Source: Mycoplasma mobile 163K
GTDB lineage: Bacteria > Bacillota_I > Bacilli_A > Mycoplasmatales > Metamycoplasmataceae
Assembly: GCF_000008365.1 (NCBI RefSeq)
Contig: NC_006908.1
Coordinates: 150,001 to 182,000 of the forward strand
Direction: 5' to 3'
Length of the DNA: 32,000 nucleotides
Below the pieces are notes generated by a model that was not told the origin of the DNA, searched no databases, and was given only the letters and a program-made list of their open reading frames with translations. How positions within the stretch are numbered: position 1 is the stretch's first letter; each line of letters opens with the position of its first letter. Shown piece by piece: positions 1-30,053 of this stretch. The position numbers and the translations under genes are program-made.

Positions 1-3000
1 TCACATTGCAAAGACCACATCCAGCATGATCTAATCCTGGTTCTATTGCAAAAATTATCCCTGATGGTTTTGGTGGATTTAATATTTTAGGTTGGAATGT
101 AGATGTTGCAAAAAATGAAATTTATAACGCAAGAACCCCTTTAAATGCCGAAAATGGGCAATTGATAATGCCCGAACTTATTAATTTAATTGATGGAGGA
201 GGTTTTGGATTTTCTTATAGATATTCACAACAAATTCTTAGAACTTTTGATTCATATTTAATTAATGTTGATGGTAATGGTGAGATAAAAAACATTAATT
301 CTAATTGAGCCAATTCTTCTTTTATAAATGAAATAACAGGAGAAACCTCTCCTATTGTAAGGGAAAATCATAATTCATTAAGAGATATTGTTTATGATGG
401 TAATGGTGGTTATTATGGGATTACTGTTTCAAATACTCTAGTTCATTTAAATAATCAAGGTAATCAATTAAGTTGAAAATCAGATATTCCTAATAATGAT
501 GTAAGTTCAAATGGATACATATCAACAAGTTCATCTGATTTACAAACGATTTTAAATAATCAGCAAAATCAAGCCACTGCTTCAATATTAAGTTTGAAAA
601 ATCAATCTTTAATTTTGGCAACAAGAAATAATGTTAGAGTATTGCCATTTAATGGAACAAGCACTTCTAACTCTACTTTAAACATTGCTTTAGCCAATAA
701 TTTTATTATTGACAATATTCAAGAAGTAGATTCTAATACTTATTTACTTTCAGGAAATAATTCTTCTTCACAAAAAATTATTTATATTTTGAGATTTGGT
801 ATAGGTGGAGCACCAATTCTATCAAATCATCACATGATCGATTCAAATTCTTTAAAATCAAATGTATTAACAGGAAAAATATATCCTAATGGTCTTTTAG
901 CAATTATGGTTGCAAACAATACAAATGGAATAACATTTTTAGATTACAATTTTAATAATAATACAATAGGATTAAACCCTACTCAAAATTTCAATACAAA
1001 TATAGTTCCAACTAATGCTCAAATTGAAAATCTTGCAATTAGTCCACAAAATGAAAGTTTAGTTGTTGCTTATAGAATAAATAACAATCTTGGATTTAGA
1101 ATTTTTGGTGCTCTTTCTAGTCGTTATAGAACAAATACTCCATATTATAGTTCAACTCCTCTTAATCTTAGTGCATCATCGATCCACCTTCCTTATATTG
1201 ATATTACACCAAATGAAGCTTCAGGCATTTTTACAAATTCAGCTTTACCATTAAAATCAATAATTTCAAATACTTTTAATCGTAGTTCAGATACTTTCAA
1301 TGCTTCAGATGCCTCAAGGGGGAATACAGCTCTTATTTATTCATTAGGACAAAATATTTATAGTTTGAATTTTAATTCTCTTGGATCAGATCAATCTAAT
1401 AATGTAACTCAGTGAGGAATTCCAGTTGAAAAAGCTTTAAGTTTTACTAAATTAACTAATGCAAATTCTCTGAGAACATCTAATTCATCTACTCTTGTAA
1501 GTAGTGATTTTAGTATTTCAGCAATTGAATCAGATGGTGTAGGAGGATACATTATTGGTGGAAATAGTCCAATTTTAATGCGTTTAGGTCTTGTTAATGG
1601 TTTTTTACAATTGATTTCATATGAAAGTTATGCAGCCGAATTTAATAATTTAATTGTAAATACTATTCACTCAGATAGACAAGGGATGTTTATTGTCTCA
1701 GGCCAAAATGGTTTAGGGGCAGCAACAATACAAATAAATAGATTACTAACAAGAGGACTAATTGATATTGATAATCCTTATGGACAAACATTTACAGGAA
1801 GACCAACCGTAGCTCAAATTACAAACTTTTGAGAATCTTATAAAAATATTACTTCTGTTAATACAATAAGCAATGGTTTAGGAGTTGTTACTTTACAAAG
1901 ACATCAAGCTTACTTATTAAATAGAAAAGCTATTAAAATTCCAAAAAATACTTCTCTTTCAATTACAGATATTTTGAGATTTAAAGGAACTATTCCAAGT
2001 GTAGGGAATCAAGTAGGATTTACAATTAATGAAACAGATCTTTGAGGTGATTTAGGAAGAGATTATTATGGTAATATTGATGTTCAATATTCATTTGTAG
2101 GTTTTACAACTAATAATCAACAAAATTGAGTAACTGGATCAGATAATTTTGTTAATTTATTTAAATTAGATGCAAATTTCAGACCTCAACCCTCAGCAGG
2201 ATTTACTTTGAACGCACAGCAAATCCAAAGTTTCAGACCTCGACATTTAATGATTAGATATGTTGTTAATAATGATAGTTTAGTTCCAGGATTTTCATCT
2301 AATAATATTGCAATTAGTACAGAAGCTCTTTCAGTTAGAGGAAATTCAGAAGTAACTAGTGCTGATATGATTAAAGATTTAACTCTAAATCATATAATTT
2401 ATTTGCAATCTAACGCAACAGGAAATTTTATTGCTGATGGCAATAGTCCATTTAGACCTACAACGTCTAATTTTTGAAATTCTTTTTTCATTGGAGAGCC
2501 AAACAATACAAATATAAATTCTTTCAGATTAGTCCCTGCAGATTTAGGTAAATCTCTAAGTAATCAAAATTTGGAAATTGTTCTTCCAAGATCAATGACT
2601 GATATCCCTTCAATTCGTAATAGAGAAGTTGAAGTAAAATTTACCAATAATATAAATCCAACACCTACTTCAATATGATATACACTTGAAGAAATAAAAA
2701 ATGGTCAATTATTCATTGATTCAAACACAAAATTGTCATGATCATTTTTTACAAGACAAGGACAACGAATTACAGCAGTAGATTCAAATAATCAACTTGG
2801 AAATGGAGTTTTTGGAAATTTACAAACAACACCTCATGAGATTAATAATGAGCAAATTATTCCAATCAATATCCCTAATTCAAGTGTAAGAGATTGAAAC
2901 ATCACTTTAGGTGGAGATACTAAAAACATTACAATTATTAATTCAAATACAAATGCTCAAGTACAAGAACATTTAGAGTTACAATATGCAATTGGATCAA

Positions 3001-6000
3001 TAAATGAAAATAATGTTTTTGTTCCTAGAATTTTTAATGGAAATATTTGATTTAAAGATACAGATTTTTCAAATGCTTTAAAAAATAATTCAATCGATAT
3101 AACTCTTGGAAACAATTTTATTTATGCAAGAGTAGTTTTAAAAAATGTGCCGAATAAAACAATAGTTGTTTCAGGAAATGAGCAAATTAACACAATAAAT
3201 CAATCAGGTATTACATTTTCATTTAATACAGGGGAAAATGGGCTTCCAATTTTAAATGGAACTCAAATTTTTGATGGGCAAAATTTTACCCCAGTTTCAA
3301 ATGCAAAAGGTCTTGTAAAAATTTTCTACAATGCAACTCGTGATTTTGAAACTTTAAAATCAACAAGTGTTATAGTAGGTGGTTCTGATTCAAAAAATTT
3401 ATCAATTAATTTTGGTCAATTATCTTTAAGTTCATTAAGATCAAGTGGAATAGATGTTCAATTCTCAATCAATAATGGAACAACTTGAGAATCATATTTA
3501 GTTGAAGGACAACTTATTGATGCTTCTGTTTCTAATGATCCTACTAAAGTTTCTTTAAGATTATTTCCAAGAAATAATTTTGCTACAGAAATTAGCACTC
3601 AAGCTCTTGTAGTTAAAAATGTTCAAGCTAGAATTTTAATTAGTGGACTAAATATTAATAACTTAAGAGATGCAAACCTTGTAAATTTAAGTGGAAACAC
3701 AAGAGATTTAGCTATCAATGTTGATCAAAACGTTTATAGAGGTGCCACCGGAAATTCAACAACTCCAATTACAAATATTGTTCAGGTACGTTTTGCTATT
3801 AATGGAGTTTTAGGTGGAACATTTTTTGAAAAAGATGAATTCTTAAGAGAATTAAGAAGTTTACCTCGTTCAATTTTAAATGCAATTAGACCAGGCGATT
3901 TTAGAGTTAGTTTTATTCTTTTAAATAATGAAGATTTTTCACTAGAAGAAGGATTATCAACTCCGCAAATCCCAAATATTACGAATGTTAAGCGTTTAGT
4001 TGATTTATTTGATCATGTTAATTTAGCTAATGGTAGTTCAATTGTATCTTCAGGATCAACATCTAGATTAAGTCTTTCTAATCCGAATTCTTTACTTTCT
4101 GAAACTACATTAACTCAATTGGGAATTGTTCTTGAATACGGTTCATATAGATATAGAGCAAATGGCGATAAAATTGATGTTAATTATGTATGAGAAACAA
4201 TAATTCCAACAGCTATTAGTTCAGCTACTCCTGATAGAACAAATCAGAATTTCAATTTTGCTCCAAATATTAATTCAAATGCTTTTTCTTTGGCATTTAG
4301 ATTTAAAATAATCGATGAAAACACTACTATTATTGTCAATGGGAATAGTAATATTGTAAATCCTGGAGTAGATGGAGATTTAGGATTTTCAATTAATACA
4401 AATTCTTTAACTAAGGATATTATTTTTGGTACAACAACAACATCTAATTTTATAAACCCAAATGATTTACAAAAAATAGTTTTAACTGGAACTACATTAA
4501 ATATAAATCAACTTATTTCTCATAGTGAAAATAATCTATTAAATTCAATTATACAAACAGATATTAGAAATGTTCTAAGAGTAGAATATTCTTTTGATAG
4601 TTCAAATTTTTATGATTTTGAAACATTCAAAAAAGAAGCAAATGAACACCAAAAAAATAATGAGAATTGATCTTTAGAATATAAAAATATACTTTTACCA
4701 AACGGAACCAGAACAGATATTCAAGGTTTTGGAAATATTAAAAAGATTTTTGTAAAATTTGAAGTAAAACCAGAACATAGATCTCAATTCACAATACCTC
4801 AAAATCAATCTAGAGAAGCAAACATTTCAGGTTTAACAAATGGCACACACATTTTAGGAAATGCATTACAATCTTCATATGATATTTCTAAATGATTGAA
4901 TATTTTGAATACAACTCCAATTACAGTTGCTCCAGGTTCAACTTCTGATAATGTTTCAGGATTAGTATTACCTACTCCAATAGAAGGTTTAAGTGTTCAA
5001 GATGCAATTAACCAATTAAGTCAAAGAGGATATATTGTAGAATTTAATGCTCCAAGCGGACAAAATCCAGCTCTTTGAGTTACAAATTTAAATTTAATTA
5101 CTTCTGTAGGGAATAGTCGTATTATTCGTGTAAGAGTAGTTCCAATAGGATTTAGACAAGGTACTGCAGTTGCTGGTAATTTGACAACTGGAGAAATTTC
5201 AAATGGTTATACAAATATAATAAGACCAAATTATATAAATACAACAAATCCTTATTCATTTAATGATGGAATTGATGTAAGAGTTAGTGTACCAACAACA
5301 CTTACAATTTCCAATCCAAGTATTGCTTTATTAAATGAAATTAAACCTTCTGGAAATACAAATCAAATAATTTTAGCAAGCCAAAATAATATTGATGCAA
5401 TTAGAAATAGTCTACTAGCAAATGGGATTATTTTAAATATTCCAGGTGTAGCAAGTGGAACTGTTGAACTTCAATATGCGATTGGTAATCAAGGTGCAAC
5501 AGATTTAGGAACTGAAAGTACTCATTTAAGACAACTAACAAATTCAAGAACTTCAAGATGATATAATGCTGCTGATTTTTCAAAATTTTTAAAAGAATTT
5601 GTAAATCAAAATGCTTTAAATGCTATTTTAGGAAATAATTTGAATATTTATGTTCGTTATGGCCTAACCTCTTCTCCTGCTTTAGGAGTAGAGGGACAAA
5701 TAGAAGGTCTTTTAACAGATAATGAAAATCAATTGAATCAATTTAGAGTTCAAAATCCAAGTCCTACTTTATTAACTTCGACCACTCAAGGGTTCATTAA
5801 TGTAGATCGAATAATTTCTGATATTTCTGCTGCTAATGCACTTTCATTTAATAATGCAAATCCAAATATTCTTTCAAATTCAATTTTCAAGATTGATTTA
5901 CCTCTTTCTTTAACCGAAGAAGGAATCAATGATGTTTCACAATTTTTAAGAACTAACAACTTAGCACTTGAATTTAGTGTAGGTCAAAATGCAGGTTTAG

Positions 6001-9000
6001 ATTTTGCAGAGTGAATTAATTTAGACCAATTTAATGCTGTTCCTTCAACAACTGTAAATTTTGGGAATCCTCCTAGATTGGTTTTTAGAATTAGAAATAC
6101 AAACCCCACATCTTTTGTTATTTATTCTCAAACTTCTATGACTAATTCATTAGTTTCTGTAAATATTGAAGCAAAATTAGATAATATAAATGTGAGTTTA
6201 AATTTAAGTTCTGCAGATATTAATAGAGTTCAATTTAGTGGAACAACTTCAAATTTAGTGATTAATGATGAATCTGCAACAAGTAATTTTTATGTTGCAA
6301 ATGGAGATGTTGAGCTTCAATATTCATTAGTAAAAAGAGCAAATGGTATTGACTTAGCTTTTGCAATTCCAGGTCAAAACTCACTTTGATTAAATAAAAA
6401 TACATTTAGTAATTCTTTAGCAAGATGAATTCCTACAACTTTTAATGCAACAACAGGAATTCCAATTTTAGATAATGTATTTACATTAAATTTAAACTAC
6501 AATGCAGCTAATTTCCAAGAAGATACTTTCAAAATAGTTGCAAGATATGTAATCACAACTCAAGGATTGACAAAAAGATTAAGTTTCACTCCTGATTTTA
6601 GAAATCCAACTAGATTAAACGAATCAAATATAGTTAATATAAATATTTCTAATTGATCAACAGTTAAAACTATAATTAATTTAAGTTCTTTAGTAAATTA
6701 TTTATCAAGACAAAATACAATTATTAATTTTGGGAATTCAATTGATTCTTCAAATATTACAAGTATTATTTTACCTGATCCTTTAAACCAAAATCCTAGC
6801 TCAATCACAAGTAGAACCTTAGTAAGATTCTTAACTAATAATGGCTTTGAAATTAAGTATGCATTTGGTAATAATGCTAATCTAGTTATTGCAAATTACA
6901 CTACTAATTGAAATTCCAATTTTCAAGCAAATCCAATTTCTTTATTAAGAACTAATGGAACTTCTGTTTTAGGGATTTTATTGAATTCGACAAATAGTAA
7001 TTTTGAAATTATTAATTCTGCTAATAATCCTACAACCACCCCAATTCTTAAAGAAGGTAATTCAATTAATATTCCTACTTTAATTAATCTTCCAAATTTA
7101 GAAATAGAAGCTTCAAGAATCATTTTTAATGCAAATGATTCACAACCACTAAGCTCTAGATTTTTAACAATTGATGATTCAAGTCTATTAGGATTAATTA
7201 GAAATAATGATAATTTTCCAAACAATGAACAAGTAATATTAGAATACTCAAATGGGTCATCATTATTACCAAATAGTTCAGAAATTTGATTCTCAAAAGA
7301 AAACTTTATTAGAAATCTTGCCCAAAACAGACCATCTTCTTTAATAACACCAAATAGAATTTTTGTAAGGTATGGTTTAATCGATAGAACTTCAAATAGT
7401 TTTAGAGTACCAACTTTTAATTCTCGTTTAACAATTGATCCAAATTCAGATTTAATTGATGGAGTATTTATTCCTAATTCAACCAATTTAAAAAGTCATG
7501 TTGATTTATCTATTCAATTAAGTGCTTTAACATCAGGAACTAGAGGAGGAGCAATTACTTTTCCAAATGGAGCAACAACAGCACGTTTAGGAAATGCTAC
7601 TTTAACTGGAGATATTAGTTTTGGAGGAATAATTTCACCTCTGTCTGCTTTAGGGATTCAATTGCAATTTTCAGCAGATAATACAACTTGATTCACTTAT
7701 GACCCAAATAATTTTCAACCACAATCTTTAATCCCAAACAATACTTTGTTTGCAAGATTTAATCTTACAACTGCCAATGCAACAAATAATTTTGTTTTAT
7801 CAAGTGAAGAATTTGTTAATGTAGAAATTGCTTCAACAGTAAAACTAGCACTAATTTTAGATGCTAATTTACTAACAAATATTAATTTAAGTGGGAACAA
7901 TAAATTTATAAACATTGATGGATCAGATATTTTAAATCCAAATAGTTCTTTTAATGTTCAACTTCAAACTATATTAGACAATGCAAATTCATCTTTATTA
8001 AAATGAGGAATTCAAAATATTGGAGATTTATCAGTACAATTTTCTTCTACATTTTCAAGTAGTGCAAATTTAGGGCCAAATAATTGATTAACTAAAGAAA
8101 ATTTTATTAGAGAATTTGCAAATAATTTGGGGACTTTTACTGAAGCTCCAATTAATTTAGAAATTAGAGCTAGATATTTCTTTACAAATCCTTTAAATAT
8201 CAATTTAGCAACAGCATCATCAAATCTAGAAACAAGTATCGGGAATACTATAGTTGCTTTAACAGATTTAAGCAATCGTTCAATACGTGCAATAAATTCA
8301 AGTAGTAATATAAAAATTTTTATTAATACTAATGAATTTATTGAAGCATTAAGAAATGGACAAACAAGATTCGAACTAGGTTCAACATCTTCAAATATTA
8401 GAGGTGTTCCAATTCTTCCGAATAATTTTAACAATGAAATATTGAATCTTTTATCTTCAAGATATGGAATCATTGCTCAATTCGGAACCTCAAATTCTTC
8501 AGCTGAAATTCCTATTGTTTGATCTAATAGTTTAATTAGTTCATTACAAACAGACATAAATAATAAGCCTATTTTATGAATGCGTTTTGTAGCAGAAAAT
8601 GTAAAAGGTATTGTTCCAACTGTTGAAGAACCAATTACAACTCAAGTACATGTAGGTACTTTTGGTACACCAATTTTATTACAACCAATAATTCCTATTT
8701 CTGTCGAAACAAATAGCGCCCATTTAAGATTTGTTAGAATTACAGGGAATACAAAAAACATTAACATAAACATCAATGAAGCACTAGCGCTTGCTCCTGC
8801 TCTTTCAAGAGATAAATTAACTGTAGAATTTTCAATTGGAGGAAATCCTTCTAATATTGCAAATAATAAAGTTGTAGAATTGATTCCTGGTCAAATTTGA
8901 TACAAACATAGAGAATTTGAAGCAGCTTTAGCAAATTATCCTAAAAATATCTTACATGGTAATTTAATTTACATGAGATGAGCATTTTCTGGCAATCAAA

Positions 9001-12000
9001 ACAATGAAGGAGAACAAATTTTAGATTCAAGTTCAATTTTATATGTTCCTTCTATTGACAATGGTAATTCAAGTTTTGCAGTATTTGCAGATATTACAAA
9101 ATACTTTGAACAGCTGCAAAATATTACTTTAGGTGGAACAACTAATTCTCCATTTTTTGCAAATGTTCCATCATTACTACAAGCAAATCCTGAATTATTT
9201 GAAAATATTCCAAATGATCCAGTTGATTTCTTGTTCCCTGGCTTAGAATTAGAATTTTCTCAATTTGCAGAAGGTCCATGACAAAAAACACCTTTATCTT
9301 CAATTGTTCTTACAAATAATTATTTTGTAAGATTAGTTTCAAATAGTATAGTTAGAATTAATTATGTATTTTCTTTTTCGCCTACTTCAGATATTGTAAC
9401 ATTTACAAGTCCAGTTAAATTAGACACAACAAATGTTAAAACAATTGTAAATGTTCCTCCGGTTACACAATTACAAAATATTGCTAATATTTCATTCAGT
9501 GGCACATTAAATAATTTAATAATTACTGAGAACATTAATGAAATTAGATCATTGATTGAAAATCTAAATCCTATAAATAAAAATTTAGCAAATAACATTG
9601 TAATTCAATATTCATATTTTGAAAATCCTACAAGTAATCAATGATTCAACAAGGAAAATTTCATCAATGAATTAAGTAGATTAAAAGGAAGAGTTTCTGA
9701 AAGTGAATTCATTATTTTAAAAAGTCAAATCAAAATTAAATATGCAATTAATAATTCATCATTTATTGTTGGTATGAATGACTCGCCTATTGATGATTTG
9801 CAATCACAAACAAATATTTCTTTAATACAACAAAATAGTTTCAGTGGATTAATTAATTTAGATTCATCACCACTATCATTATTTAAAAAAGTGATATTAT
9901 CAGGAACTCACAATAATTATTCTCTAAATTTTGATGGCCTTTCTAGAGAAGCAATGAAAAGTATCTTAGATAGATATACTTCAATTTCACTTCAAACTCC
10001 TTTTAGTATTTATATTACAAATACTGCTGGAGAAGGAATCCCTTCATTTGAAGAAGGAAGATTAATTTATAGATCTAATAATCCTTTAGTTCTTGAAAAC
10101 ATAACAAATTTTCCTCTTGATTTAGGAAATACAATCCCTGAAGAATTGCCTTTATTCATTCGTTTTGTTCCGAATCCAACTAGTGCTGATGTTGCAAATA
10201 CATATAGAATTTTAAATGAAGGAAATTTATTGGATGTAAATCAAGGAATCCAATTTAGAATTAAAGTTTCTGTAGATCCAATTAATCCATTTAGAATCGA
10301 TTTAAAAAGTGTTGTAGATACAATTTTCGCAAATCAATTATCAAATTTTGCTTCTCAAATAGTTGCAAATCCAAATGAAACATTTACAATTCAAGGTAAT
10401 TCAACTTTAGCATTAACTAATGGTGGATCAATAATTAGTAATCCAAAAGAATTCTTTAATGAATTGGATTTAAATGATGCTGAATTTTTAGCATTCCAAT
10501 ATTTTGTTTCAAACTCAAGATTAAGCCCTCAAGAAATTGCTAATTTAAGATTAAGCACTTCAAGTTCATTTTTTACTCAAGAAATTCCTTCAAATTTAAA
10601 ATCAGGTCAATTTGTTTATATAAGAGTAGGAATTGATCAAAATAATCCAAAAGCAAATTCTTTAGAAGTTTCAAATTCATCTATTATTACTGAAGTCTTA
10701 GTTACAAATTTAGCAATTGACTTAGTAAGATCTCCATTAAATTGAGATTTTGTAGATTTTGAAAATGTTACAGGAACTATTCCGTTTAGCGGGACATCAT
10801 TTATAAATAATTTAATATTAAATGTTGATCAAAATGAAAACTTTAGAGGTGTTGGAATAAGAATTTTTAACAATTTTACTTATTTAACAAATACAGGACA
10901 AGAAGTAATTTTTACAAATTCAAATCCACCAACACAAGATGTTTTAAATACATTGTTGAAAATCAATGGAGCTTTTGTTGTAAAAACTCAAATCGGAATC
11001 CCTTCTAATGGTGACAAAGAATTAAAACTCATTAATGATCAAGGATCAGAAGCAGGAATTACTTATTGAGTAAATTCTCAAGGTGTGCCACTTCCTCCAT
11101 TGCAAAGAGCAATTAATGTAAATGAAGATTTATTTTTCCAACTTACAAGAAATCCAGATGGTCAAATTAGTTTTGCTCAAAATAGATCATTGGCAAATTT
11201 TGAACTATTTAATATTTATGCAGAAGCAACTATTTCATATCAATTTATAGCTTTAGATGGATTTAGTGGCTTTATTAATACTGAAAATACAACAATTTTA
11301 GATCTTTTATCTCAAATTCAAGAATTCAAAGTTCCAAGCGGTGAAATTAAAAATCAAATAAATGGAATTTCACAATTCGAAGTTTTAATGCCTCAAATTG
11401 TTCATAGCACATCTCCTTTAAATTTACCTCCTATTAGTGGAATTTCAACTTTTGCAAATTTAGTTGTTAATAGAAATGGTGTGCAAATAGACTCGAATAA
11501 TTTAATTAATAATTTATCTCAAAATCTTTTAAGCATTGAAATAATTCTTACAAAAACAATAAATGGAGAACAAAAACAAACAATTTTTAGTGTCCAAAAT
11601 GGAAGAATTGATTTTCCAACAAATCTTGAAAATGGTGATTTAGTAACAATTCAAATAATCCCATTGAATTCAAATTTCTTTGCTATTAGTTATTTAGAAA
11701 AACCTAATTTAAGAGAAACTTTCACAATTTCAGGTCTTGAAGTTGATCCAGGATTAGAAGCATTTAAATTCTTAAGAACTGGTTTCAACATCAATAACAA
11801 TTCTCCTGTAAGTGGAAGAGGAAGTTTTGAAGTTTTATCAAATGATCCTCAAGATCCATTCAATGCTCTTAAAGATCCTGTTAATAGAAATTCAAATTTA
11901 CAATGAAATTATTCAATTTTTAGACCAAAAGCTAATCAAGATGGAACTTTTGGTCCTGAATATGAAGTTATTAGTTTCGAAAGAAATGAAAAACCGATTT

Positions 12001-12665
12001 CATTAAAAAATGGAGATATTGTTCAATGAATACTTGCTTTAAAGAACAATGAAAATGGCGGAATTATTACAACAACATATAATAATGCTATTGCAAGTCC
12101 TTTTGGAACTCCTCAAGTTTCAAAATTAAGAATAGATAAACCAGGCCTATTTTTTACAAGATTAATAAATGGAGTCCCAAGAAGAATTGATTTAACTGAA
12201 GGATTTTTAGTTTCAGGATTAAAAGAATCTTTAAGTATTCCTAATGATTTTAATTTAAATGCTATTTCAATTTCTTTTATAGGACAAAATCAAATAGGAT
12301 CTTTTGAAGCAAATACATCTAATTTAAATATTCCAGAAAAAACAATTATTACGTATTTCAAAAGAGGCGAAAATGGAGAAGAAATTCAAATTTTCCCAAA
12401 TTCAACATCTACTAATTTATCAAATGGAGAAACTATTATAATTAGATTGCAATTAGATCCACAATTTAATAATGATTTTGCTTTAGATGTACCTTCAGGA
12501 GCAATTATTGAAATAAATCAAATTGTTTCAGGTTTAATTGAACAATCAAATCCTGGAGCACAAATTGCAATTATTACAGCAGCTTCAGTTGCAACAATTC
12601 TTACTCTAGGTTTAGGTGTTTTATCACTAATAATTATTAGAAGAAGAAAATTAAAAGGAAAATAA
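1..12665 (+). CDS. gli521: Giant surface protein, 5'-partial (4,220 codons in window), Gli521-type gliding-machinery protein with C-terminal membrane anchor
   Basis: All 16 large + strand fragments from 594 to 12665 are in the same frame (start divisible by 3). Each fragment ends at TGA. Hand translation of 3-600 and 6387-6981 shows only TGA interruptions. TAA stop at 12663-12665. The only hydrophobic helix sits at the extreme C-terminus. Size and synteny with a 356-aa downstream gene match my recollection of M. mobile gli521-p42. Confidence 0.8.
2043..9690 (+). repeat. Protein-level tandem array of about 19-20 divergent modules (about 120-180 aa each) inside the giant ORF
   Basis: The recurring order is phi-[SGT]-G-[NT]-T-x-x-phi-x-I (e.g. 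LSGNTRDLAINV, ITGNTKNININI, FSGTTSNLVIND), then phi-[EQ]-[YF]-[SA] (VELQYA, VELQYS, LRVEYS, LALEFS, LTVEFS, IDVQFS), then a UGA-encoded Trp. The Trp is often followed by [FYL]-x-K-E-N-F-I (WFSKENFIRNL at 7287, WLTKENFIREF at 8085, WFNKENFINEL at 9642). Confidence 0.65.
12564..12638 (+). other. C-terminal transmembrane anchor of the giant protein, followed by the basic tail RRRKLKGK
   Basis: IAIITAASVATILTLGLGVLSLIII is an uninterrupted hydrophobic stretch. It is followed by 8 mostly basic residues and then the stop codon. Confidence 0.8.
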
Positions 12666-12668
12666 AAT

Positions 12669-13739
12669 ATGACAAAAAATTGAAATTTCGAAAATAAGGA
12701 AAATTATTATCCAAATATTGTTCTTTTTCATTTAGGTGATGATGAAACTTTACAAGCTTATGACTTAGATGCAGAAATAAAAGAATATATTAAATATTCA
12801 AGAATTGGTTCAAACAATACTGATGAAGCTTTAATGCAAAAAGGAATAAATGAACTTTTTTTAACATGATTAAAAAAAGATAAAAAAGTTTTAAATTCAA
12901 AAAAGTTTTTTAAACTTAATTCAGATAAACTAAAAGATTACTTGAAAGAAGTTGATATTTCAATTATTATTTCAAAATCCAATGACATTGCTCAAATAAA
13001 TTATTTGACGGCTTTAAATCAATTTATTTTTAAACCTTTAGATATCTTAAGTTTTAATTTTGTATTGAGGACTTCTAATCATAGTAAAAAATCTGAAAAA
13101 GTCCTTAACAGTTCAATAAAACTTTTAAAAAAGCAAACTAGATCTCAAATGATTATTATTGAGGAAAGAGACATTTTAGCATCATTTCAAAATCTGAAAA
13201 TTAGTAATTTAAAAGAATTTATTTCAAAAAATTTCATTAAACTTGTAGATTCTTTAATAAGCCCATTTTTAAGAGTAGTAGAGAATCCTTATTTATTTAA
13301 AAAGTTAAAATATCAAATTTTCACAAATGAAATAAATTCAAATCTTATTTTATCATCTCTAGCAATAAGTAGAAAAACAGAAAACAGGTTAGAGGATTCA
13401 TTAAGAAAAGTTCTTATAAACCCAATCTTTAAATCATCTTTTGAATATTCAAAATTGTTATTAGTTAACATTAAAGGTATTTTTTTAGAAGATAAACATA
13501 AAGAAAAAATTGAAAATAGATTAAAAGAAATTTTAGGGCATGAAAAAGAAATTATTGTAACTTATTTCGATGATAGATATGCAATGGATAGATACACTCA
13601 AATTTCTATTTTTGCATTTTTTGTTGAAAAAACAGGACATACCAACAAAACCACTCAATTGCAAAATAATTTGCTAAATTCTAAAGAAGAATATCAAACA
13701 ATTGTTAATAACTTGACAGAAGAAATTCTTCTAAGATAA
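12669..13739 (+). CDS. p42: P42-like protein (356 aa) translationally coupled to the giant gene; C-terminal half resembles the FtsZ C-terminal domain
   Basis: ATG at 12669 lies 3 nt after the upstream TAA. Two in-frame TGA codons (12681, 12867) join it to track ORF 12942-13739. Its size and position match P42 of the M. mobile gliding operon (from memory). YSKLLLVNIKG...IIVTYFDD...ISIFAFFVE resembles FtsZ G(A)xGVLVNItGG...IIxGxxxD...vtViATG. Confidence 0.7.
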
Positions 13740-13769
13740 AAAAAGTGATAGTTATCTATCACTTTTTTT
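13740..13769. terminator. Bidirectional rho-independent terminator between p42 and the convergent minus-strand cassette
   Basis: Perfect 11-bp stem aaaagtgatag (13741-13751) / ctatcactttt (13756-13766) with loop ttat. It is flanked by an A-run on one side and a T-run on the other. The stop codon of the minus-strand 90-aa ORF lies in the loop. Confidence 0.75.
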
Positions 13770-14024
13770 ATTAAATTTAAAATGCTCATTATAATTATTC
13801 ACAAAATTTTCAAATAAATTGTAAATATTTATGTAAACATTGTCTTCTATTTCGACATTTTTTTCTTTTATTTCGAGATATTTATCACCATTCATTTTTG
13901 TGATTTTAACTAAGAAATTTATGATTTCTTCTTCATTTAATATATCGTCCTTACCTATTTCTATGCTTTCAGACAAATATTTTATGGTATAAATATCTTT
14001 ATTATTTATTAATATTTCTAACAT
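13752..14024 (-). CDS. Small acidic cytoplasmic protein (90 aa), last gene of the 2-TM cassette, unknown function
   Basis: Intact ORF with a strong SD (GAAGGAGAATT-ATG on the minus strand at 14025-14038). No TM segment. Glu/Asp/Asn/Ile rich. Confidence 0.6.
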   Translation of the reverse strand: MLEILINNKDIYTIKYLSESIEIGKDDILNEEEIINFLVKITKMNGDKYLEIKEKNVEIEDNVYINIYNLFENFVNNYNEHFKFNKKSDR

Positions 14025-14078
14025 AATTCTCCTTCAAATTTAAATAACTTAAAAAAAGAATTTTTGTAAAAACTATTA

Positions 14079-14537
14079 TTATTTCCGAATTGCTTCATCA
14101 ATTTTTTCGAATAATTTTAAAAATTGAATATCATCTTTTGCATATTTAGTTTGTGACTTTTTAAATTCGTCCATTTCTTCATTGATCATTTTTATTCTAT
14201 CATTTAAATCTTTATGAAGGTTTTTAAATTCAAAAAAAGCATTCAAACTACTAAAAAATGCAATTGAACCTGTTATAAAGGCAATTGCTATGAAAAAAGG
14301 TCTTGATAACTGATTATTATTAAGTCTAATTGCAAACAAATTTAGTACAACTAACATAGAACTAATTGCAAAAATAGCAATATTTAAAGTTAGAAAAATA
14401 CCATAGCCAACAACATATCTTTTTTTAAAAGTTTTGTATTGCTCTTTTATTTGATTAATTAATTCTTTTCTTGAATATTGACCAATGTCATTTGTTAAAA
14501 AATTTCTAAATTCTTCTTCTTTTTTTCTATGTCTCAT
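14079..14537 (-). CDS. 2-TM membrane protein, SLATT/DUF4231-like, paralog 3 of 3 (152 aa)
   Basis: Basic N-terminal helix (QIKEQYKTFKKRY), two TM helices (VVGYGIFLTLNIAIFAISSMLVVLNLFAI; PFFIAIAFITGSIAFFSSLNAFF), then a charged helical tail (FKNLHKDLNDRIKMINEEMDEFKKSQTKY). Its ATG lies 1 nt after the upstream stop. Confidence 0.7.
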   Translation of the reverse strand: MRHRKKEEEFRNFLTNDIGQYSRKELINQIKEQYKTFKKRYVVGYGIFLTLNIAIFAISSMLVVLNLFAIRLNNNQLSRPFFIAIAFITGSIAFFSSLNAFFEFKNLHKDLNDRIKMINEEMDEFKKSQTKYAKDDIQFLKLFEKIDEAIRK

Positions 14538-14538
14538 T

Positions 14539-15051
14539 TTATATTTCCTTATTAATTTTTATGATTTCTAAAGATTTTTCATATTCTCTTAATCTATTTG
14601 CTTGTTCAAGGATCAAACATACAGTTTCAAATAAAATAATTTCATTTTCTTTAGTATTTTTTGTATATTTACCTGCTCTTAATTCAAATTCCATTTTTTC
14701 AAATTTTAATTGCTTATGAATTTTTCAATTTTTTTTATATGTATCTTTTACAACAAAAAAATTGACAATGCTTGATAAAAATGCACTAACACTAGAAATT
14801 ATTGAGTTTGTAAAAACAAACACATTACTTGGTCCTCCTGCAGGATCTTGGAATGCTAATTTAGCAATATTTAATGTACTTATAATTACAACATTAAATG
14901 TCAATGCAATTATAATAAAATTCAACAAGTAATATAAAAATCTAAAAGAAGAGTAGATTCGAAAGGTTTTGCTTATGTATTTTTTAGTAAATGACCTTAC
15001 ATCTTCTTTTGAAGATAAAATTTTTGATTCTTTATTAGATTGATTAATCAT
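14539..15051 (-). CDS. 2-TM membrane protein, SLATT/DUF4231-like, paralog 2 of 3 (170 aa from ATG 15051; alternative ATGs at 15057 and 15072)
   Basis: Track ORF 14725-15072 ends at TGA. Hand translation continues ...KKNWKIHKQLKFEKMEFELRAGKYTKNTKENEIILFETVCLILEQANRLREYEKSLEIIKINKEI to TAA at 14539-14541. GAGGA lies 5 nt upstream of ATG 15051. Two TM helices are present. Confidence 0.65.
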
Positions 15052-15592
15052 CTTCATCCTCTGAACTTTCATTAATAAAAATCGATTTTAAAACTTTCAA
15101 TGTTTTTGCATTTTTTGGTTTTTTCAAATATATATCATTAATATTTTCAAGTAAAATAGTAATTTTTTCGTAATTATAATTTTCAATATCCATTTTAGAT
15201 TTTATTAAAAGATATTCCAATTCTTGATAAGCTTTTTTAAATTTTTGAAATCTAGATTTAGATTTATAAATTGCTAATACAGTTAACAATATAAATAGAA
15301 AAATTGTAAAAAATACAACTAATGCCGATAAAATAAGTTCCAAACTATTTCCAATATTTGAATCATTTAGAATTACCCCTAATGTAAAAGATGCAAGACC
15401 AAGCAAAACAATGTTTAATAAAAAAATTAGCGTTGAAGTTAAAATCCAAATCAAATGGTTAGCTTTTGATTTAAAATTCAAATTATTTAAGAAAATATCT
15501 ACTTGGTTTTGAATTTTATAAAATTTTTCCTCATTAGAGTCAAGTAAAATAGTCCTTATTATGTTTTTGTTTTTACTAGATTTATCTTTCAT
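15044..15592 (-). CDS. 2-TM membrane protein, SLATT/DUF4231-like, paralog 1 of 3 (182 aa), acidic C-terminal tail SSEDEDD
   Basis: Intact ORF, with an upstream in-frame TAA at 15608-15610. TM helices are LIWILTSTLIFLLNIVLLGLASFTLGVIL and LELILSALVVFFTIFLFILLTVLAIY. The post-TM segment is KSKSRFQKFKKAYQELEYLL. Confidence 0.7.
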   Translation of the reverse strand: MKDKSSKNKNIIRTILLDSNEEKFYKIQNQVDIFLNNLNFKSKANHLIWILTSTLIFLLNIVLLGLASFTLGVILNDSNIGNSLELILSALVVFFTIFLFILLTVLAIYKSKSRFQKFKKAYQELEYLLIKSKMDIENYNYEKITILLENINDIYLKKPKNAKTLKVLKSIFINESSEDEDD

Positions 15593-15682
15593 ATATAATC
15601 AATTATTTTACCAAATTTAAAAGTTTTATTAAATATAAAAAATCAAATTTCATATTCTTAAAAATTAATATTTAAATTAATA

Positions 15683-15688
15683 TATAAT
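15683..15688 (+). promoter_or_regulatory. -10 box TATAAT, 7 nt upstream of ATG 15696 (probable leaderless transcript)
   Basis: The sequence is tataatgtttattATGaaa. No SD is present. The same module occurs at hrcA and argS. Confidence 0.4.
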
Positions 15689-15695
15689 GTTTATT

Positions 15696-17938: not shown

Positions 17939-18850
17939 ATGAAAGAAAGACAAACAGATTTTTTTAATTTTGGAGACAAAATAACATTTGATTATACAGC
18001 AAAAGTTACTAAAGATAATTTAGAATGAAGTAAAAAAAATATTTTTCTCACTTTAGGAGAAAATACTTTTTTACCAAATTTTGATTTTCATTTTTTAACT
18101 ATACCTTTTAGTGATAAGTTGATAATCAATTATAAATTTAGTGATTTTTATTTTGATAAAAAATTATCTGGTAAGGAAGTAGAATTTTCAATTCAAATTC
18201 AAAAAAGAGAAGCGAGTTCAGATAAAAATTTACAAAGTAAAAATCTAATTATTGATGCTATCAATGTTCAAAGAGATTTTTCAGAAAAAAATAAATCAAG
18301 TGATAATTTAGAAATTTTAAATAAACAAATTGAAGATAAAAATGATTTAATAATTAATTTAGAAAAAAAAGTTTTTGATTTAACTCTTGAGAACAAAAAA
18401 AACATTGATGATTTTAATGAAAAAGCAAAATCTTTTGCAAAAAAAGCACAAGAAGAATTGGATAAATATAAACTAGAATTAAAATCATTTTTGGAAAATG
18501 AATTTGAAGAGAAGAAAAAATTTTCATTTCAAAAATTATTTGAAAATATTATAAATCCTTTAAATAATTTTAGATTGGCAATTGATGCTGGTTCAAAACA
18601 GGAAAATTCTTCCATTAAGTCATATGTGCAAGGTTTTGAAATGCTTTTAAATCAAACAATAAATATTTTAGAATCTTATGGACTAATAATTATAAGACCA
18701 GAAATAGGAGACACCTTTAACCCTGAAGTTCACAATGCAGTTGAATTAAGAGAAGAAGGAACACCAAATAGAATTTTGAAAATTAACTCACTAGGCTATC
18801 AATTTCATGAAAGAGTTTTAAAACCAGCTTCAGTTATTGTTTCGAAATAA
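17939..18850 (+). CDS. grpE: GrpE nucleotide-exchange factor with an N-terminal, roughly 90-aa trigger-factor-type FKBP-like domain (303 aa)
   Basis: The C-terminus NPLNNFRLAID...GFEMLLNQ...ILESYGL...GDTFNPEVHNAV...GYQFHERVLKPASVIV is GrpE. ATG 17939 is in frame with track ORF 18119 through TGA 18026, with no other stop. Confidence 0.85.
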
Positions 18851-23992: not shown

Positions 23993-24580
23993 ATGAATTT
24001 AAATAATATAAAAGTCATTAATTCTAATGATGATGAAGGTGAAAATTTTAACTACCCAAAACTAATTTCCACAAAAAAGGATTTATTTTTTGCAAAAAAA
24101 TTGAAAAATTTGGCCCTTCTGGATTCATTTTGCTTAATACTATTATTATTTTTTGTTTTAACTGAATTAATCATATTAATTTTGTTTTTATTATTGAATA
24201 GAAACGACATCATATCAATTTTTTCAATTGTAATTTTGGGTTTAATTATTTTATTGTTTTTTTCTAGAATAATTTTTATAAAGAAATATTTAAATTTGAA
24301 AAAAATTGTTTATGAATTTATCGATAAGTTTGATGACAAATCTCTTTTTAAATATCTAATTTACGATGATAATTTTTGATTTTGAGTCAAAACAATACTT
24401 AATCCAGTTTGGTCAATTTTATTTTTGAAATTCATATTTAAATATACAAATAAAATTATCAATCTTTTTAAAAAACCTTTATCAGAAAAAGAAATCAAAC
24501 AAATAGTCGAAAAATATGATGCTGAAAAATTTAAATATTATAAAAATAAAGAAGATTTATTTAATAAAATTAATAATTAA
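23993..24580 (+). CDS. Small membrane protein (195 aa), unknown function, coupled to permease 2
   Basis: ATG lies 2 nt after the permease stop. Two long hydrophobic helices are present. The ORF extends through two TGA codons (24377, 24383) to TAA at 24578. Confidence 0.55.
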
Positions 24581-29976: not shown

Positions 29977-30053
29977 TGGGGCGTATGACGGGGTTCGAAC
30001 CCGCGCATGACGGTTCCACAAACCGCTGTGTTAACCGCTTCACCACATACGCC
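29977..30053 (-). tRNA. tRNA-His (anticodon GUG) with genomically encoded G-1 and 3' CCA
   Basis: The cloverleaf was folded by hand. The acceptor stem is GCGTATG/CATACGC, with G-1:C73 and an encoded CCA. The anticodon loop is TTGTGGA (anticodon = + strand cac 30017-30019). The T-arm is GCGGG-TTCGAAC-CCCGT. Confidence 0.9.

What the first reader, a model, noticed from the sequence alone, without database searches (positions are those of the whole stretch)
13752..15592. Convergent cassette of three paralogous 2-TM proteins (SLATT/DUF4231-like) plus a small acidic protein, abutting the gliding operon
Four tightly packed minus-strand genes have junctions of an 8-nt overlap (ATGATTAA), a 1-nt gap and a 54-nt gap. 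The first three (182, 170 and 152 aa) share one architecture. Each has a basic amphipathic N-terminal helix ending K..[FY]..(K/R), two long TM helices joined by a short loop, and then a charged helical tail with F/W...K......L..E......Y. That layout and size range (125-205 aa) fit the DUF4231/SLATT family of predicted pore-forming effectors from nucleotide-signalling conflict systems. Here, however, no cyclase, TIR, SLOG or other sensor gene is adjacent. Instead there is a 90-aa acidic soluble protein with its own strong SD. The cassette shares a bidirectional terminator with p42 and a 103-nt divergent promoter region with a SHOCT-type membrane protein. It may be a stand-alone membrane-perturbing or immunity module, or an uncharacterised accessory of the gliding apparatus.
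Basis: inference. Interest (0 to 1): 0.7.

Follow-up and report, generated by a model that had tools for sequence, protein, structure and literature searches.

The report
Sensor-less triple SLATT membrane operon
Beside the gliding genes of Mycoplasma mobile lies a small operon of three anciently duplicated two-helix membrane proteins of the SLATT/DUF4231 kind, a kind otherwise known as suicide pores of anti-virus systems. Here they are kept as a fixed trio with no sensor gene, plus a small acidic add-on protein, which makes this a moderately novel variant whose role is still unproven.

Summary
Read with genetic code 4, window 13752-15592 (minus strand) carries four packed genes of Mycoplasma mobile 163K: MMOB1090 (A, 182 aa), MMOB1080 (B, 170 aa), MMOB1070 (C, 152 aa) and MMOB1060 (D, 90 aa). 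The junctions, the Shine-Dalgarno site and the bidirectional terminator are as described.

B is a clear Pfam DUF4231 member (75 bits against a cut-off of 24.7). C and A are divergent paralogs. This shows only by B-C similarity, by profile-profile comparison (95.9%, with clean controls) and through a bridging ortholog.

The trio recurs in the same order, with 1:1:1 orthology, in two other Mollicute lineages. One is an M. mobile relative that has the same neighbours and D. The other is a distant lineage with no D and degV as its neighbour. No cyclase, TIR, SLOG or reverse transcriptase is nearby. There are no significant defence-system, phage or plasmid matches, GC content is native, and selection is purifying.

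D is a lineage-restricted orphan. It also occurs as a solo copy beside a parA-like gene.

Best reading: a vertically inherited, co-translated, probably hetero-oligomeric SLATT-fold membrane complex. D is a secondary add-on, and the adjacency to the gliding genes is positional. The function is inferred, not shown. This is a new variant of a known kind, of moderate interest.

The parts
15044..15592 (-). Gene A (MMOB1090, 182 aa). It is the most divergent of the three 2TM SLATT-fold paralogs and has an acidic C-terminal tip (SSEDEDD).
   Evidence: ORF and translation. Two TM-like spans at 44-77 and 79-113 with basic termini. Only weak direct hits (SLATT_1 E 0.015, SLATT_5 0.048). Homology to the B/C types by hhalign 95.9% with controls. 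Orthologs A' (55% identity) and X1 (z 13.3). UniProt name 'Expressed protein'. dN/dS 0.24.
14539..15051 (-). Gene B (MMOB1080, 170 aa; contains an in-frame TGA=Trp). This is the canonical DUF4231 member of the trio.
   Evidence: Pfam PF14015, E 6e-21, 75 bits against a cut-off of 24.7. The 170-aa start is supported by RefSeq and by the relative's B', which starts just after the stop of A'. Orthologs B' (55%) and X2 (z 13.1). dN/dS 0.36.
14079..14537 (-). Gene C (MMOB1070, 152 aa), the third 2TM paralog. It has a strongly conserved TM1 end, LVVLNLFAIR.
   Evidence: B-C z 7.2. SLATT_1 E 1.6e-5 and DUF4231 E 0.08, both below cut-offs. Orthologs C' (60%), X3/P0006 (34%, z 17.5) and P0007. 'Expressed protein'. 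dN/dS 0.24.
13752..14024 (-). Gene D (MMOB1060, 90 aa). A soluble acidic orphan, a lineage-restricted add-on to the trio.
   Evidence: pI 4.75 and no TM span. No hit passing any curated cut-off or E<=0.001 in Pfam, NCBIfam, PADLOC, PHROGs or PDB (best: phrog_30910, E 0.0045). Exhaustive phmmer against 1.84 billion representatives found one real relative only. Ortholog D' 53%, dN/dS 0.17. Absent after X3 in L002/L003/L005/L007. A solo paralog lies in L008.
14029..14034 (-). Shine-Dalgarno site (AAGGAG) of D, inside the 54-nt C-D spacer (14025-14078).
   Evidence: Sequence read. The relative has AAAGGAG at the same place.
13736..13771 (.). Bidirectional intrinsic terminator shared by p42 (Gli42) and the cassette. 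D's stop codon lies in the loop.
   Evidence: 16-bp perfect stem with an A-run and a T-run; -16.7/-16.4 kcal/mol, z -9.2/-8.2. A hairpin of different sequence occupies the same place in L001.
15593..15695 (.). Divergent intergenic region between A and the upstream membrane-protein gene. It holds the candidate promoter of the cassette (TG-extended -10 TAAAAT ending at 15605, 12 nt before A's ATG).
   Evidence: Consensus scan, (a pattern match only, not evidence of function). Sequence.

Best explanation
A, B and C are three anciently diverged paralogs of the SLATT/DUF4231 superfamily. Each has a cytoplasmic basic N-helix, a TM hairpin and a cytoplasmic helical tail. They are encoded in a self-contained, translationally coupled operon that is inherited vertically in Mollicutes.

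The most likely way it works (inferred): the three subunits are made in fixed proportion and pack through paralog-specific TM hairpins into one hetero-oligomeric membrane assembly. That assembly would be a gated channel or pore-like complex of the kind SLATT proteins are thought to form. Here it is used as a resident cell component, not as the effector of a nucleotide-signalling suicide system.

D is a small acidic cytoplasmic protein that was appended to the operon only in the M. mobile lineage. It probably docks on the basic cytoplasmic parts of the complex as a modulator.

The position next to p42/gli521 is a conserved neighbourhood in that lineage, not a shared transcription unit.

Shown: gene structure, family relationship, paralogy, colinear orthology, purifying selection, lack of sensors, and native composition.

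Inferred: hetero-oligomerisation, channel or pore activity, and D binding.
For: Family relationship:
- B is DUF4231 at 75 bits.
- All six proteins tested share SLATT_1 as their common hit.
- The A family against the B/C family gives hhalign 95.9%, with clean controls.

Colinear orthology:
- Gene order is the same, and junctions are overlapping or near-abutting in all lineages: 8 nt and 26 nt in L002; 8 nt and a 1-nt gap in the window; 1-nt gaps in L001.
- All three paralogs are retained in a 777-kb genome.

Selection and conservation:
- dN/dS is 0.24-0.36, like p42 at 0.35.
- Ortholog conservation is generally highest in the TM segments (21-48%) and lower in the tails (11-27%). Paralog TM identity is only 4-32%, so each paralog has its own TM signature.

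Expression: A and C carry the source name 'Expressed protein'.

No conflict-system context:
- Neighbours are HrcA, GrpE, DnaK, permeases, PlsY, p42 and gli521.
- Rfam finds only a tRNA.
- PADLOC E-values are all above 1e-4.
- There are no phage, plasmid or IMG/VR matches.
- Cassette GC is 0.19-0.23, against 0.22-0.27 for the neighbours.

D:
- D is acidic (pI 4.75) and A-C are basic (pI 9.1-9.7).
- D is absent from the distant lineage.

Literature:
- SLATT proteins are thought to oligomerise in the membrane, with pockets between protomers (bioRxiv 10.64898/2025.12.03.692087).
- One DUF4231 protein, ATU0568, has a non-immune role: it is needed for Agrobacterium motility (PMC9812332).
Against: - No experiment or multimer model supports hetero-oligomerisation or conductance.
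- The monomer model of B is poor (pLDDT 65, pTM 0.28).
- A and C fail every curated cut-off.
- Known SLATT proteins are conflict effectors, so a resident housekeeping role goes against most family precedent.
- Only three lineages carry the trio, all but one known only from short SRA-derived contigs. No relative was recovered from GTDB genomes or JGI metagenomes. 'Vertically inherited in Mollicutes' therefore rests on a thin sample.
- dS is near saturation, so the dN/dS values are rough.
Confidence: 0.5

Rival explanations
1. A sensor-less conflict module. The three SLATT proteins form a membrane-breaching toxin or abortive-infection effector that senses invasion directly. D is its cognate inhibitor (immunity or antitoxin). 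The solo D-like gene on a parA-bearing, plasmid-like contig would then be a mobile-element counter-defence.
For: - The family precedent is overwhelmingly immune: a predicted nucleotide-responsive pore (PMC7159879), the DRT10 effector and Thoeris type VII ThsH.
- The weak hits that do appear are to RT-associated SLATT, PycTM and 2TM effector models.
- An acidic D beside basic A-C fits an inhibitor.
- A D paralog sits alone between 24-nt perfect inverted repeats next to a ParA-like ATPase. It shows a mosaic 96-100% DNA tract shared with the cassette copy.
Against: - The trio exists without D in L002/L003/L005/L007, so D cannot be an obligatory antidote.
- There are no defence neighbours, no significant PADLOC hit, and no phage or plasmid homologs.
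- Position and order are conserved across about 45% protein divergence, GC is native and selection is purifying. This is unlike a typical defence island.
- A and C are named as expressed proteins, which suggests constitutive production.
Confidence: 0.22
2. A membrane accessory of the M. mobile gliding machinery. It could, for example, anchor or organise Gli proteins or couple the internal motor to the surface legs.
For: - The block gli521-p42-[D C B A]-E395 is conserved in the M. mobile relative at about 50-60% protein identity.
- A DUF4231 protein in the Agrobacterium flagellar cluster is required for motility.
Against: - The cassette is convergent to p42, with a strong bidirectional terminator between them, so it is not co-transcribed.
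- The orthologous trio in the distant lineage abuts degV and has its own terminators on both sides.
- Ten proteins have been localised to the machinery and none is MMOB1060-1090 (PMC7052211).
- No paper mentions these locus tags.
- ATU0568 is only a superfamily-level analogy.
Confidence: 0.13
3. Generic 2TM proteins with only compositional resemblance. On this view the 'paralogy' of A and the SLATT assignment are artefacts of hydrophobic segments in an AT-rich genome.
For: - A-B and A-C pairwise scores are near background (z 2.9 and 1.6).
- A misses the B/C HMM (E 1.4).
- Many unrelated TM families give E-values of 0.001-0.1.
Against: - B scores 50 bits above the DUF4231 cut-off over the full model.
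- hhalign gives 95.9% over 125 columns that include the soluble parts, while the reversed and shuffled controls fail.
- X1 (A type) scores z 5-9 against X2 and X3.
Confidence: 0.05

Closest known systems
Pfam PF14015 DUF4231 / SLATT superfamily (NCBIfam SLATT_1 NF033634): 2TM predicted pore-forming effectors
   Same: - Size of 137-182 aa.
- Two TM helices followed by a cytoplasmic helical region.
- B passes the Pfam threshold.
- All members tested have SLATT_1 as their shared hit.
   Different: - No partner sensor or signal-generating gene.
- Three diverged paralogs kept as a fixed, colinear, overlapping operon.
- Apparently vertical inheritance in a minimal genome.
- A and C fall below all curated cut-offs.
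SLATT effectors of DRT10/UG17 (RT + ncRNA + SLATT) and ThsH of type VII Thoeris (TIR + SLATT)
   Same: - Weak profile similarity to RT-associated SLATT models (E 0.004-0.06).
- Tight gene coupling by overlapping stop and start codons is also described for SLATT-RT.
- Predicted oligomerisation in the membrane.
   Different: - No RT, ncRNA or TIR in the window or in the related loci.
- Those systems have a single SLATT gene, whereas here there are three.
Agrobacterium fabrum ATU0568 (DUF4231/SLATT protein in the flagellar gene cluster, required for motility)
   Same: - A SLATT-superfamily protein with no conflict-system partner.
- It lies beside motility genes (PMC9812332).
   Different: - Single gene.
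- Restricted to Alphaproteobacteria.
- Flagellar rather than gliding motility.
- No specific sequence relationship to A-C was tested or found.
Toxin-antitoxin or holin-antiholin type small membrane-protein modules
   Same: Small membrane proteins followed by a small soluble acidic protein that has its own ribosome-binding site.
   Different: - No family hit beyond a sub-threshold Holin-X match for A (E 0.01).
- D is dispensable in another lineage.
- No phage context.

Membership tests
Pfam DUF4231 (PF14015) | Whole-protein score at or above the gathering threshold (24.7 bits). | tested here: met
   B scores 75.1-75.3 bits, E about 6e-21, covering model positions 3-102 of 103. B' (P0003) carries a precomputed PF14015 assignment. 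This holds for B only.
Pfam DUF4231 (PF14015) | The same threshold applied to A and C and to their orthologs. | tested here: not met
   C scores 13.8 bits (E 0.08). A has no DUF4231 hit at E<=10. X1, X2 and X3 score 14.9, 17.2 and 17.7 bits. These proteins belong only by paralogy to B.
SLATT superfamily (NCBIfam SLATT_1 NF033634 and SLATT_4/5/fungal) | Score at or above the curated cut-off (41 bits for SLATT_1). | tested here: not met
   Scores are A 15.3, B 21 and C 24.9 bits. Even so, all 6 of 6 proteins hit SLATT_1 at E<=1 (best 7.8e-7), and it is the only family that all of them share.
SLATT superfamily | Architecture of a pair of TM helices followed by a helical cytoplasmic region (as summarised in PMC9812332, citing Burroughs 2015). 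| tested here: met
   Hydropathy and charge distribution. The AF2 model of B has helices 15-66, 76-127 and 133-169, at low confidence.
SLATT superfamily (as conflict-system effector) | Genomic association or fusion with a signal-generating or sensing partner (SMODS, SLOG, TIR, RT, GAP1 and the like). | tested here: not met
   Neighbours within the window are gli521, p42, a membrane protein of unknown family, HrcA, GrpE, DnaK, permeases, an NTP_transferase and PlsY. L001/L006 have the same neighbours. L002 has degV. Rfam finds no ncRNA.
Known anti-phage defence systems (PADLOC-DB) | A significant match of any component to a system model. | tested here: not met
   The best hits are PycTM at E 1.7e-4 (X1) and RTasSLATT at E 0.0036-0.06. 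B and D have none.
M. mobile gliding machinery | Co-transcription with gli123-gli349-gli521-gli42, or demonstrated localisation to the machinery. | tested here: not met
   The cassette lies on the opposite strand, convergent, separated by a terminator with z -9. It is not among the 10 localised proteins (PMC7052211). Localisation itself cannot be tested here.
M. mobile gliding machinery | Co-occurrence with gli genes across species. | tested here: inconclusive
   Adjacent in M. mobile and one relative. Next to degV in the distant lineage, whose gliding-gene content is unknown. [quoted passage not shown]
Type II-like toxin-antitoxin pair (A-C toxin, D antidote) | The antidote gene always accompanies the toxin genes. 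| tested here: not met
   D is absent downstream of X3 in L002, L003, L005 and L007 (L004 ends just after X3). D also occurs without the trio in L008.

The most novel reading that the evidence does not exclude
SLATT-fold proteins have a non-immune, resident form: an obligate heterotrimeric (A:B:C) membrane channel or organiser, conserved in wall-less minimal bacteria. The small acidic protein D, which also travels on a parA-bearing, plasmid-like element flanked by perfect inverted repeats, would be a mobile modulator or inhibitor of that complex. This would link a housekeeping SLATT assembly to mobile-element conflict, or in M. mobile to the adjacent gliding apparatus.
Probability: 0.2. Interest if true: 0.7.

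Novelty: new variant of a known kind. Interest (0 to 1): 0.45.

Why it matters
SLATT/DUF4231 proteins are widely annotated as the killing arm of nucleotide-signalling immune systems, yet how they assemble and what gates them is still open.

A sensor-free trio of diverged paralogs, kept in fixed order in a 777-kb genome, offers two things. First, it is a natural case for asking what a SLATT assembly does when no signal generator is present. Second, it is a tractable three-subunit system for structural work on SLATT oligomer interfaces.

For the mycoplasma field, it assigns a fold and a family to three 'hypothetical' or 'expressed' proteins (MMOB1070-1090) that flank the gliding operon. It also argues that they should not be assumed to be gliding components.

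If the finding turns out to be ordinary, the practical result is still an improved annotation: A and C are divergent SLATT paralogs, B starts at 15051, and D is an orphan add-on.

Tried and rejected
- Word-indexed homolog searches with A, with B and with a B+C profile found only M. mobile itself, one relative and two marginal C-type proteins.
- Two GTDB genome scans (C family, B family), two JGI metagenome scans and one IMG/VR scan found no confirmed relative, not even M. mobile itself. [quoted passage not shown]
- tblastn of B against phage and plasmid records gave no match.
- PDB sequence searches with the trio profile and with the D profile found nothing below E 0.05.
- PHROGs and PADLOC gave only sub-threshold hits.
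- The first hhalign of A/A' against B/B'/C/C' gave only 58%. It became convincing only after the distant orthologs were added.
- An HMM of B/C does not find A in the window, and no fourth paralog exists in the window. ORF 23993-24580 looked similar by eye but is not a hit.
- Inverted repeats flanking D in the window (20 nt, 80%) and in L001 (17 nt, 88%) are within what this AT-rich DNA gives by chance, so I did not count them. Only the 24-nt perfect pair in L008 exceeds the shuffles.
- The founding SLATT paper (Burroughs et al. 2015) and the M. mobile genome/proteome paper (Jaffe et al. 2004) are not held in the library. Their content is cited second-hand or from my own knowledge.
Full report
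**What the window is.** GC content is 20-30%. ORFs close only when TGA is read as Trp. Protein A is 100% identical to a Mycoplasma mobile protein on a 777,079-bp contig. The window is therefore M. mobile 163K.

Exact look-up gives the locus tags and accessions:

| Gene | Locus tag | Accessions |
|---|---|---|
| B | MMOB1080 | AAT27594.1, 177 aa; RefSeq WP_041362770.1, 170 aa, named 'DUF4231 domain-containing protein' |
| A | MMOB1090 (by order) | AAT27595.1 |
| C | MMOB1070 (by order) | AAT27593.1 |
| D | MMOB1060 (by order) | AAT27592.1 |

Upstream on the plus strand are gli521 (168-12665, cut by the window start) and p42/gli42 (12669-13739). Published work gives the operon as gli123-gli349-gli521-gli42 = MMOB1020-1050 (PMC7052211).

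**The observation.** All structural details check out.

- Coordinates are A 15044-15592, B 14539-15051, C 14079-14537 and D 13752-14024, all on the minus strand.
- The A/B junction is an 8-nt ATGATTAA overlap, B/C is a 1-nt gap, and C/D is a 54-nt gap.
- AAGGAG lies 4 nt before D's ATG.
- B has an in-frame TGA, which is why a standard-code ORF finder splits it into 115 aa and 51 aa.
- The 170-aa start of B is preferred over the 177-aa one. RefSeq uses it, and in the relative B' begins one base after the stop of A'.
- Hydropathy shows two TM-like spans in each of A, B and C. The N- and C-terminal regions are K/R-rich and the connecting loop lacks K/R. By the positive-inside rule both termini are cytoplasmic.
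- D has no hydrophobic span and a pI of 4.75. A-C have pI 9.1-9.7.
- The hairpin between p42 and D (13736-13771) is a 16-bp perfect stem flanked by an A-run and a T-run. It folds equally well on both strands, z about -9 and -8. D's stop codon is in its loop.
- The simple terminator scan missed this hairpin.
- 'SHOCT-type' for the divergent neighbour has no Pfam support.

**Are the three proteins paralogs?**

- B and C clearly are: Smith-Waterman z = 7.2, with 0 of 500 shuffles as good.
- A is not demonstrable pairwise: z = 2.9 and 1.6.
- A is not found by an HMM of B/C (E 1.4).
- A first profile-profile test gave only 58%.
- The answer came from more distant orthologs, described below. With them, the A family against the B+C family gives hhalign probability 95.9%, E 5.8e-9, over 125 columns. 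Those columns span the N-helix, both TM helices and the tail.
- In controls, a reversed template gives 6.1% and twenty column-shuffled templates give at most 0.5%.
- The A-type ortholog X1 also scores z 5-9 against X2 and X3.

So the three are true paralogs, but old ones.

**Family.**

- B matches Pfam DUF4231 at 75 bits against a gathering score of 24.7, across the whole model.
- C scores 13.8 bits, and A has no DUF4231 hit.
- In NCBIfam the only family that all six proteins (A, A', B, B', C, C') share is SLATT_1. The best E is 7.8e-7, but every score is below the 41-bit cut-off.
- PADLOC gives only weak hits, all to 2TM or SLATT effector models (RTasSLATT, PycTM, '2TM' effector).
- No solved structure is related by sequence.
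- The AF2 model of B is three long helices at low confidence, and Foldseek found nothing meaningful.

B is therefore a member of DUF4231. A and C are divergent SLATT-superfamily paralogs by transitive evidence, not by any curated threshold.

**Relatives and synteny.** Despite billions of proteins searched, relatives are very few.

- *Close relative.* Two SRA-derived contigs, L001 and L006, are 98.7% identical to each other over the B'-D' part of the cassette. They carry A' (176 aa), B' (169), C' (151) and D' (91), followed by convergent p42' and gli521'. The homolog of the upstream membrane protein lies divergently on the other side. Protein identities to M. mobile are 55, 56, 60 and 53%, against 49% for p42. 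dN/dS is 0.17-0.36, with dS near saturation. A terminator hairpin of different sequence sits at the same place.
- *Distant lineage.* Short contigs from other samples (L002-L005, L007; GC 28%; TGA=Trp) carry X1 (168 aa), X2 (151) and X3 (137), with 8-nt and 26-nt overlaps. Matching is strictly colinear: X1-A z 13.3, X2-B z 13.1, X3-C z 17.5, with weak cross pairs. There is no D. X3 is followed at once by a hairpin and a convergent DegV gene (Pfam E 1.5e-6). X1 is preceded by a terminator-like hairpin and a TATAAT.

The three-gene core is thus an old, self-contained operon. The duplication predates the split of these lineages, and each paralog has been kept.

Between orthologs, the TM segments are generally the best-conserved parts, at 21-48% against 11-27% in the tails. 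Between paralogs the TM segments are only 4-32% identical. C-type proteins share an invariant LVVLNLFAIR at the outer end of TM1.

**D.**

- D has no hit that passes a curated cut-off or E<=0.001 in any family library. The best is phrog_30910, E 0.0045.
- It has no PDB relative.
- An exhaustive phmmer search of 1.84 billion cluster representatives returned one real relative, P0008. The two other hits are repetitive proteins.
- P0008 lies on contig L008, from the same SRA series as L001/L006. It is a solo gene with its own AGGAG.
- It is preceded by about 380 nt with no called gene. A terminator follows, and beyond it a convergent ParA-like ATPase (AAA_31, E 1e-40) and a 101-aa protein.
- A perfect 24-nt inverted repeat brackets it (182-205 and 664-687). 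The longest in 200 dinucleotide shuffles was 18 nt.
- Its DNA is 96-100% identical to D' over the central 60 nt (90% over the next 30) but only 46-60% at the ends. That mosaic suggests exchange between copies.

D is therefore a separable, lineage-restricted gene whose attachment to the trio is secondary.

**Context.** Within the window the neighbours are housekeeping genes: HrcA, GrpE, DnaK, two amino-acid permeases, an NTP-transferase and PlsY. No cyclase, TIR, SLOG or reverse transcriptase is present. Rfam finds only a tRNA. Cassette GC (0.19-0.23) matches its surroundings. There is no phage, plasmid or IMG/VR homolog.

**How it most likely works.**

- *Shown:* three diverged SLATT-fold paralogs with N-in/C-in hairpins, encoded in an operon with overlapping or abutting reading frames. 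They are retained 1:1:1 under purifying selection in a minimal genome, with no partner sensor. A and C are named as expressed proteins. By my own knowledge, that label in the M. mobile annotation reflects peptide detection by Jaffe et al. 2004; I could not read the paper.
- *Inferred:* coupled translation, paralog-specific conserved TM hairpins, and the literature view that SLATT protomers oligomerise side by side in the membrane together point to one hetero-oligomeric complex. That complex would be a gated channel or pore-like assembly used as a resident component. D, acidic against the basic cytoplasmic parts, probably binds them as a lineage-specific modulator.

I put this at about 0.5. The evolutionary and structural part is much firmer than the functional part.

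**Rivals.**

- *Sensor-less defence or toxin-immunity module, about 0.22.* It has family precedent and the intriguing solo D copy on a plasmid-like contig. Against it, the trio occurs without D, it lies in no defence context, and it looks vertically inherited.
- *Gliding accessory, about 0.13.* It has conserved adjacency in the M. mobile lineage and the analogy of ATU0568, a DUF4231 protein needed for Agrobacterium motility. Against it are the convergent orientation across a terminator, the degV neighbour in the distant lineage, and its absence from the published component list.
- *Compositional artefact, about 0.05.* This is excluded for B and C and unlikely for A.

**Novelty and score.** B is already annotated as DUF4231. 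No paper in the searchable library mentions MMOB1060-1090.

What I did not find described anywhere:

- A and C are divergent SLATT paralogs.
- The trio is a conserved colinear unit in at least two Mollicute lineages.
- It lacks any sensor.
- D is a mobile-looking add-on.

That makes it a new variant of a known kind. It would interest people working on SLATT effectors and on mycoplasma membrane proteins. But the function is unproven and the phylogenetic sample is thin, so I score interest at 0.45.

Noticed in passing
L008:182-687 (D paralog gene at 381-650); parA-like gene at 871-1638 (-); 101-aa gene at 1616-1921 (-): A solo D-family gene is bracketed by a perfect 24-nt inverted repeat (the maximum in 200 shuffles was 18 nt). 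It lies next to a ParA-like ATPase and a small protein, after about 380 nt with no called gene. Its central 60 nt are 96-100% identical to the cassette copy D' in L001, while its ends are only 46-60% identical. This looks like a plasmid-like or mobile context with recombination between the copies.
   Followed up: partly
window 15687/15696-16874 (+): The divergent neighbour (395 aa) is a multi-TM protein with a long N/Q-rich region. It is conserved in the same divergent position in the M. mobile relative (L006:2-427).
   Followed up: partly
window 23993-24580 (+): A 195-aa hydrophobic protein with no Pfam family lies between an amino-acid permease and an NTP-transferase gene. It resembles the cassette proteins by eye but is not a hit to their HMMs.
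   Followed up: yes
window 17939-18850 (+): GrpE carries an N-terminal extension of about 150 aa before the GrpE domain (Pfam match at residues 151-303 only).
   Followed up: no
window 12669-13739 (+): p42/Gli42 has no Pfam family at E<=0.001. It is less conserved between M. mobile and its relative (49% identity) than the cassette proteins are (53-60%).
   Followed up: partly
C and C' proteins (window 14079-14537; L001:1099-1554): There are weak NCBIfam hits to the mycoplasma families MAG1210_fam (E about 1e-4, model positions 50-145 of 550) and MAG0110_fam. Other mycoplasma membrane proteins may therefore contain a SLATT-like 2TM module.
   Followed up: no
Genome-contig scans: Patterns derived from M. 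mobile's own proteins did not recover M. mobile from the GTDB collection. The region seems to be masked, or the genome is absent, so negative results from that collection are weaker than they look.
   Followed up: no
window 29980-30052 (-): A single tRNA gene (Rfam, 60.7 bits) is the only Rfam match in the window.
   Followed up: no
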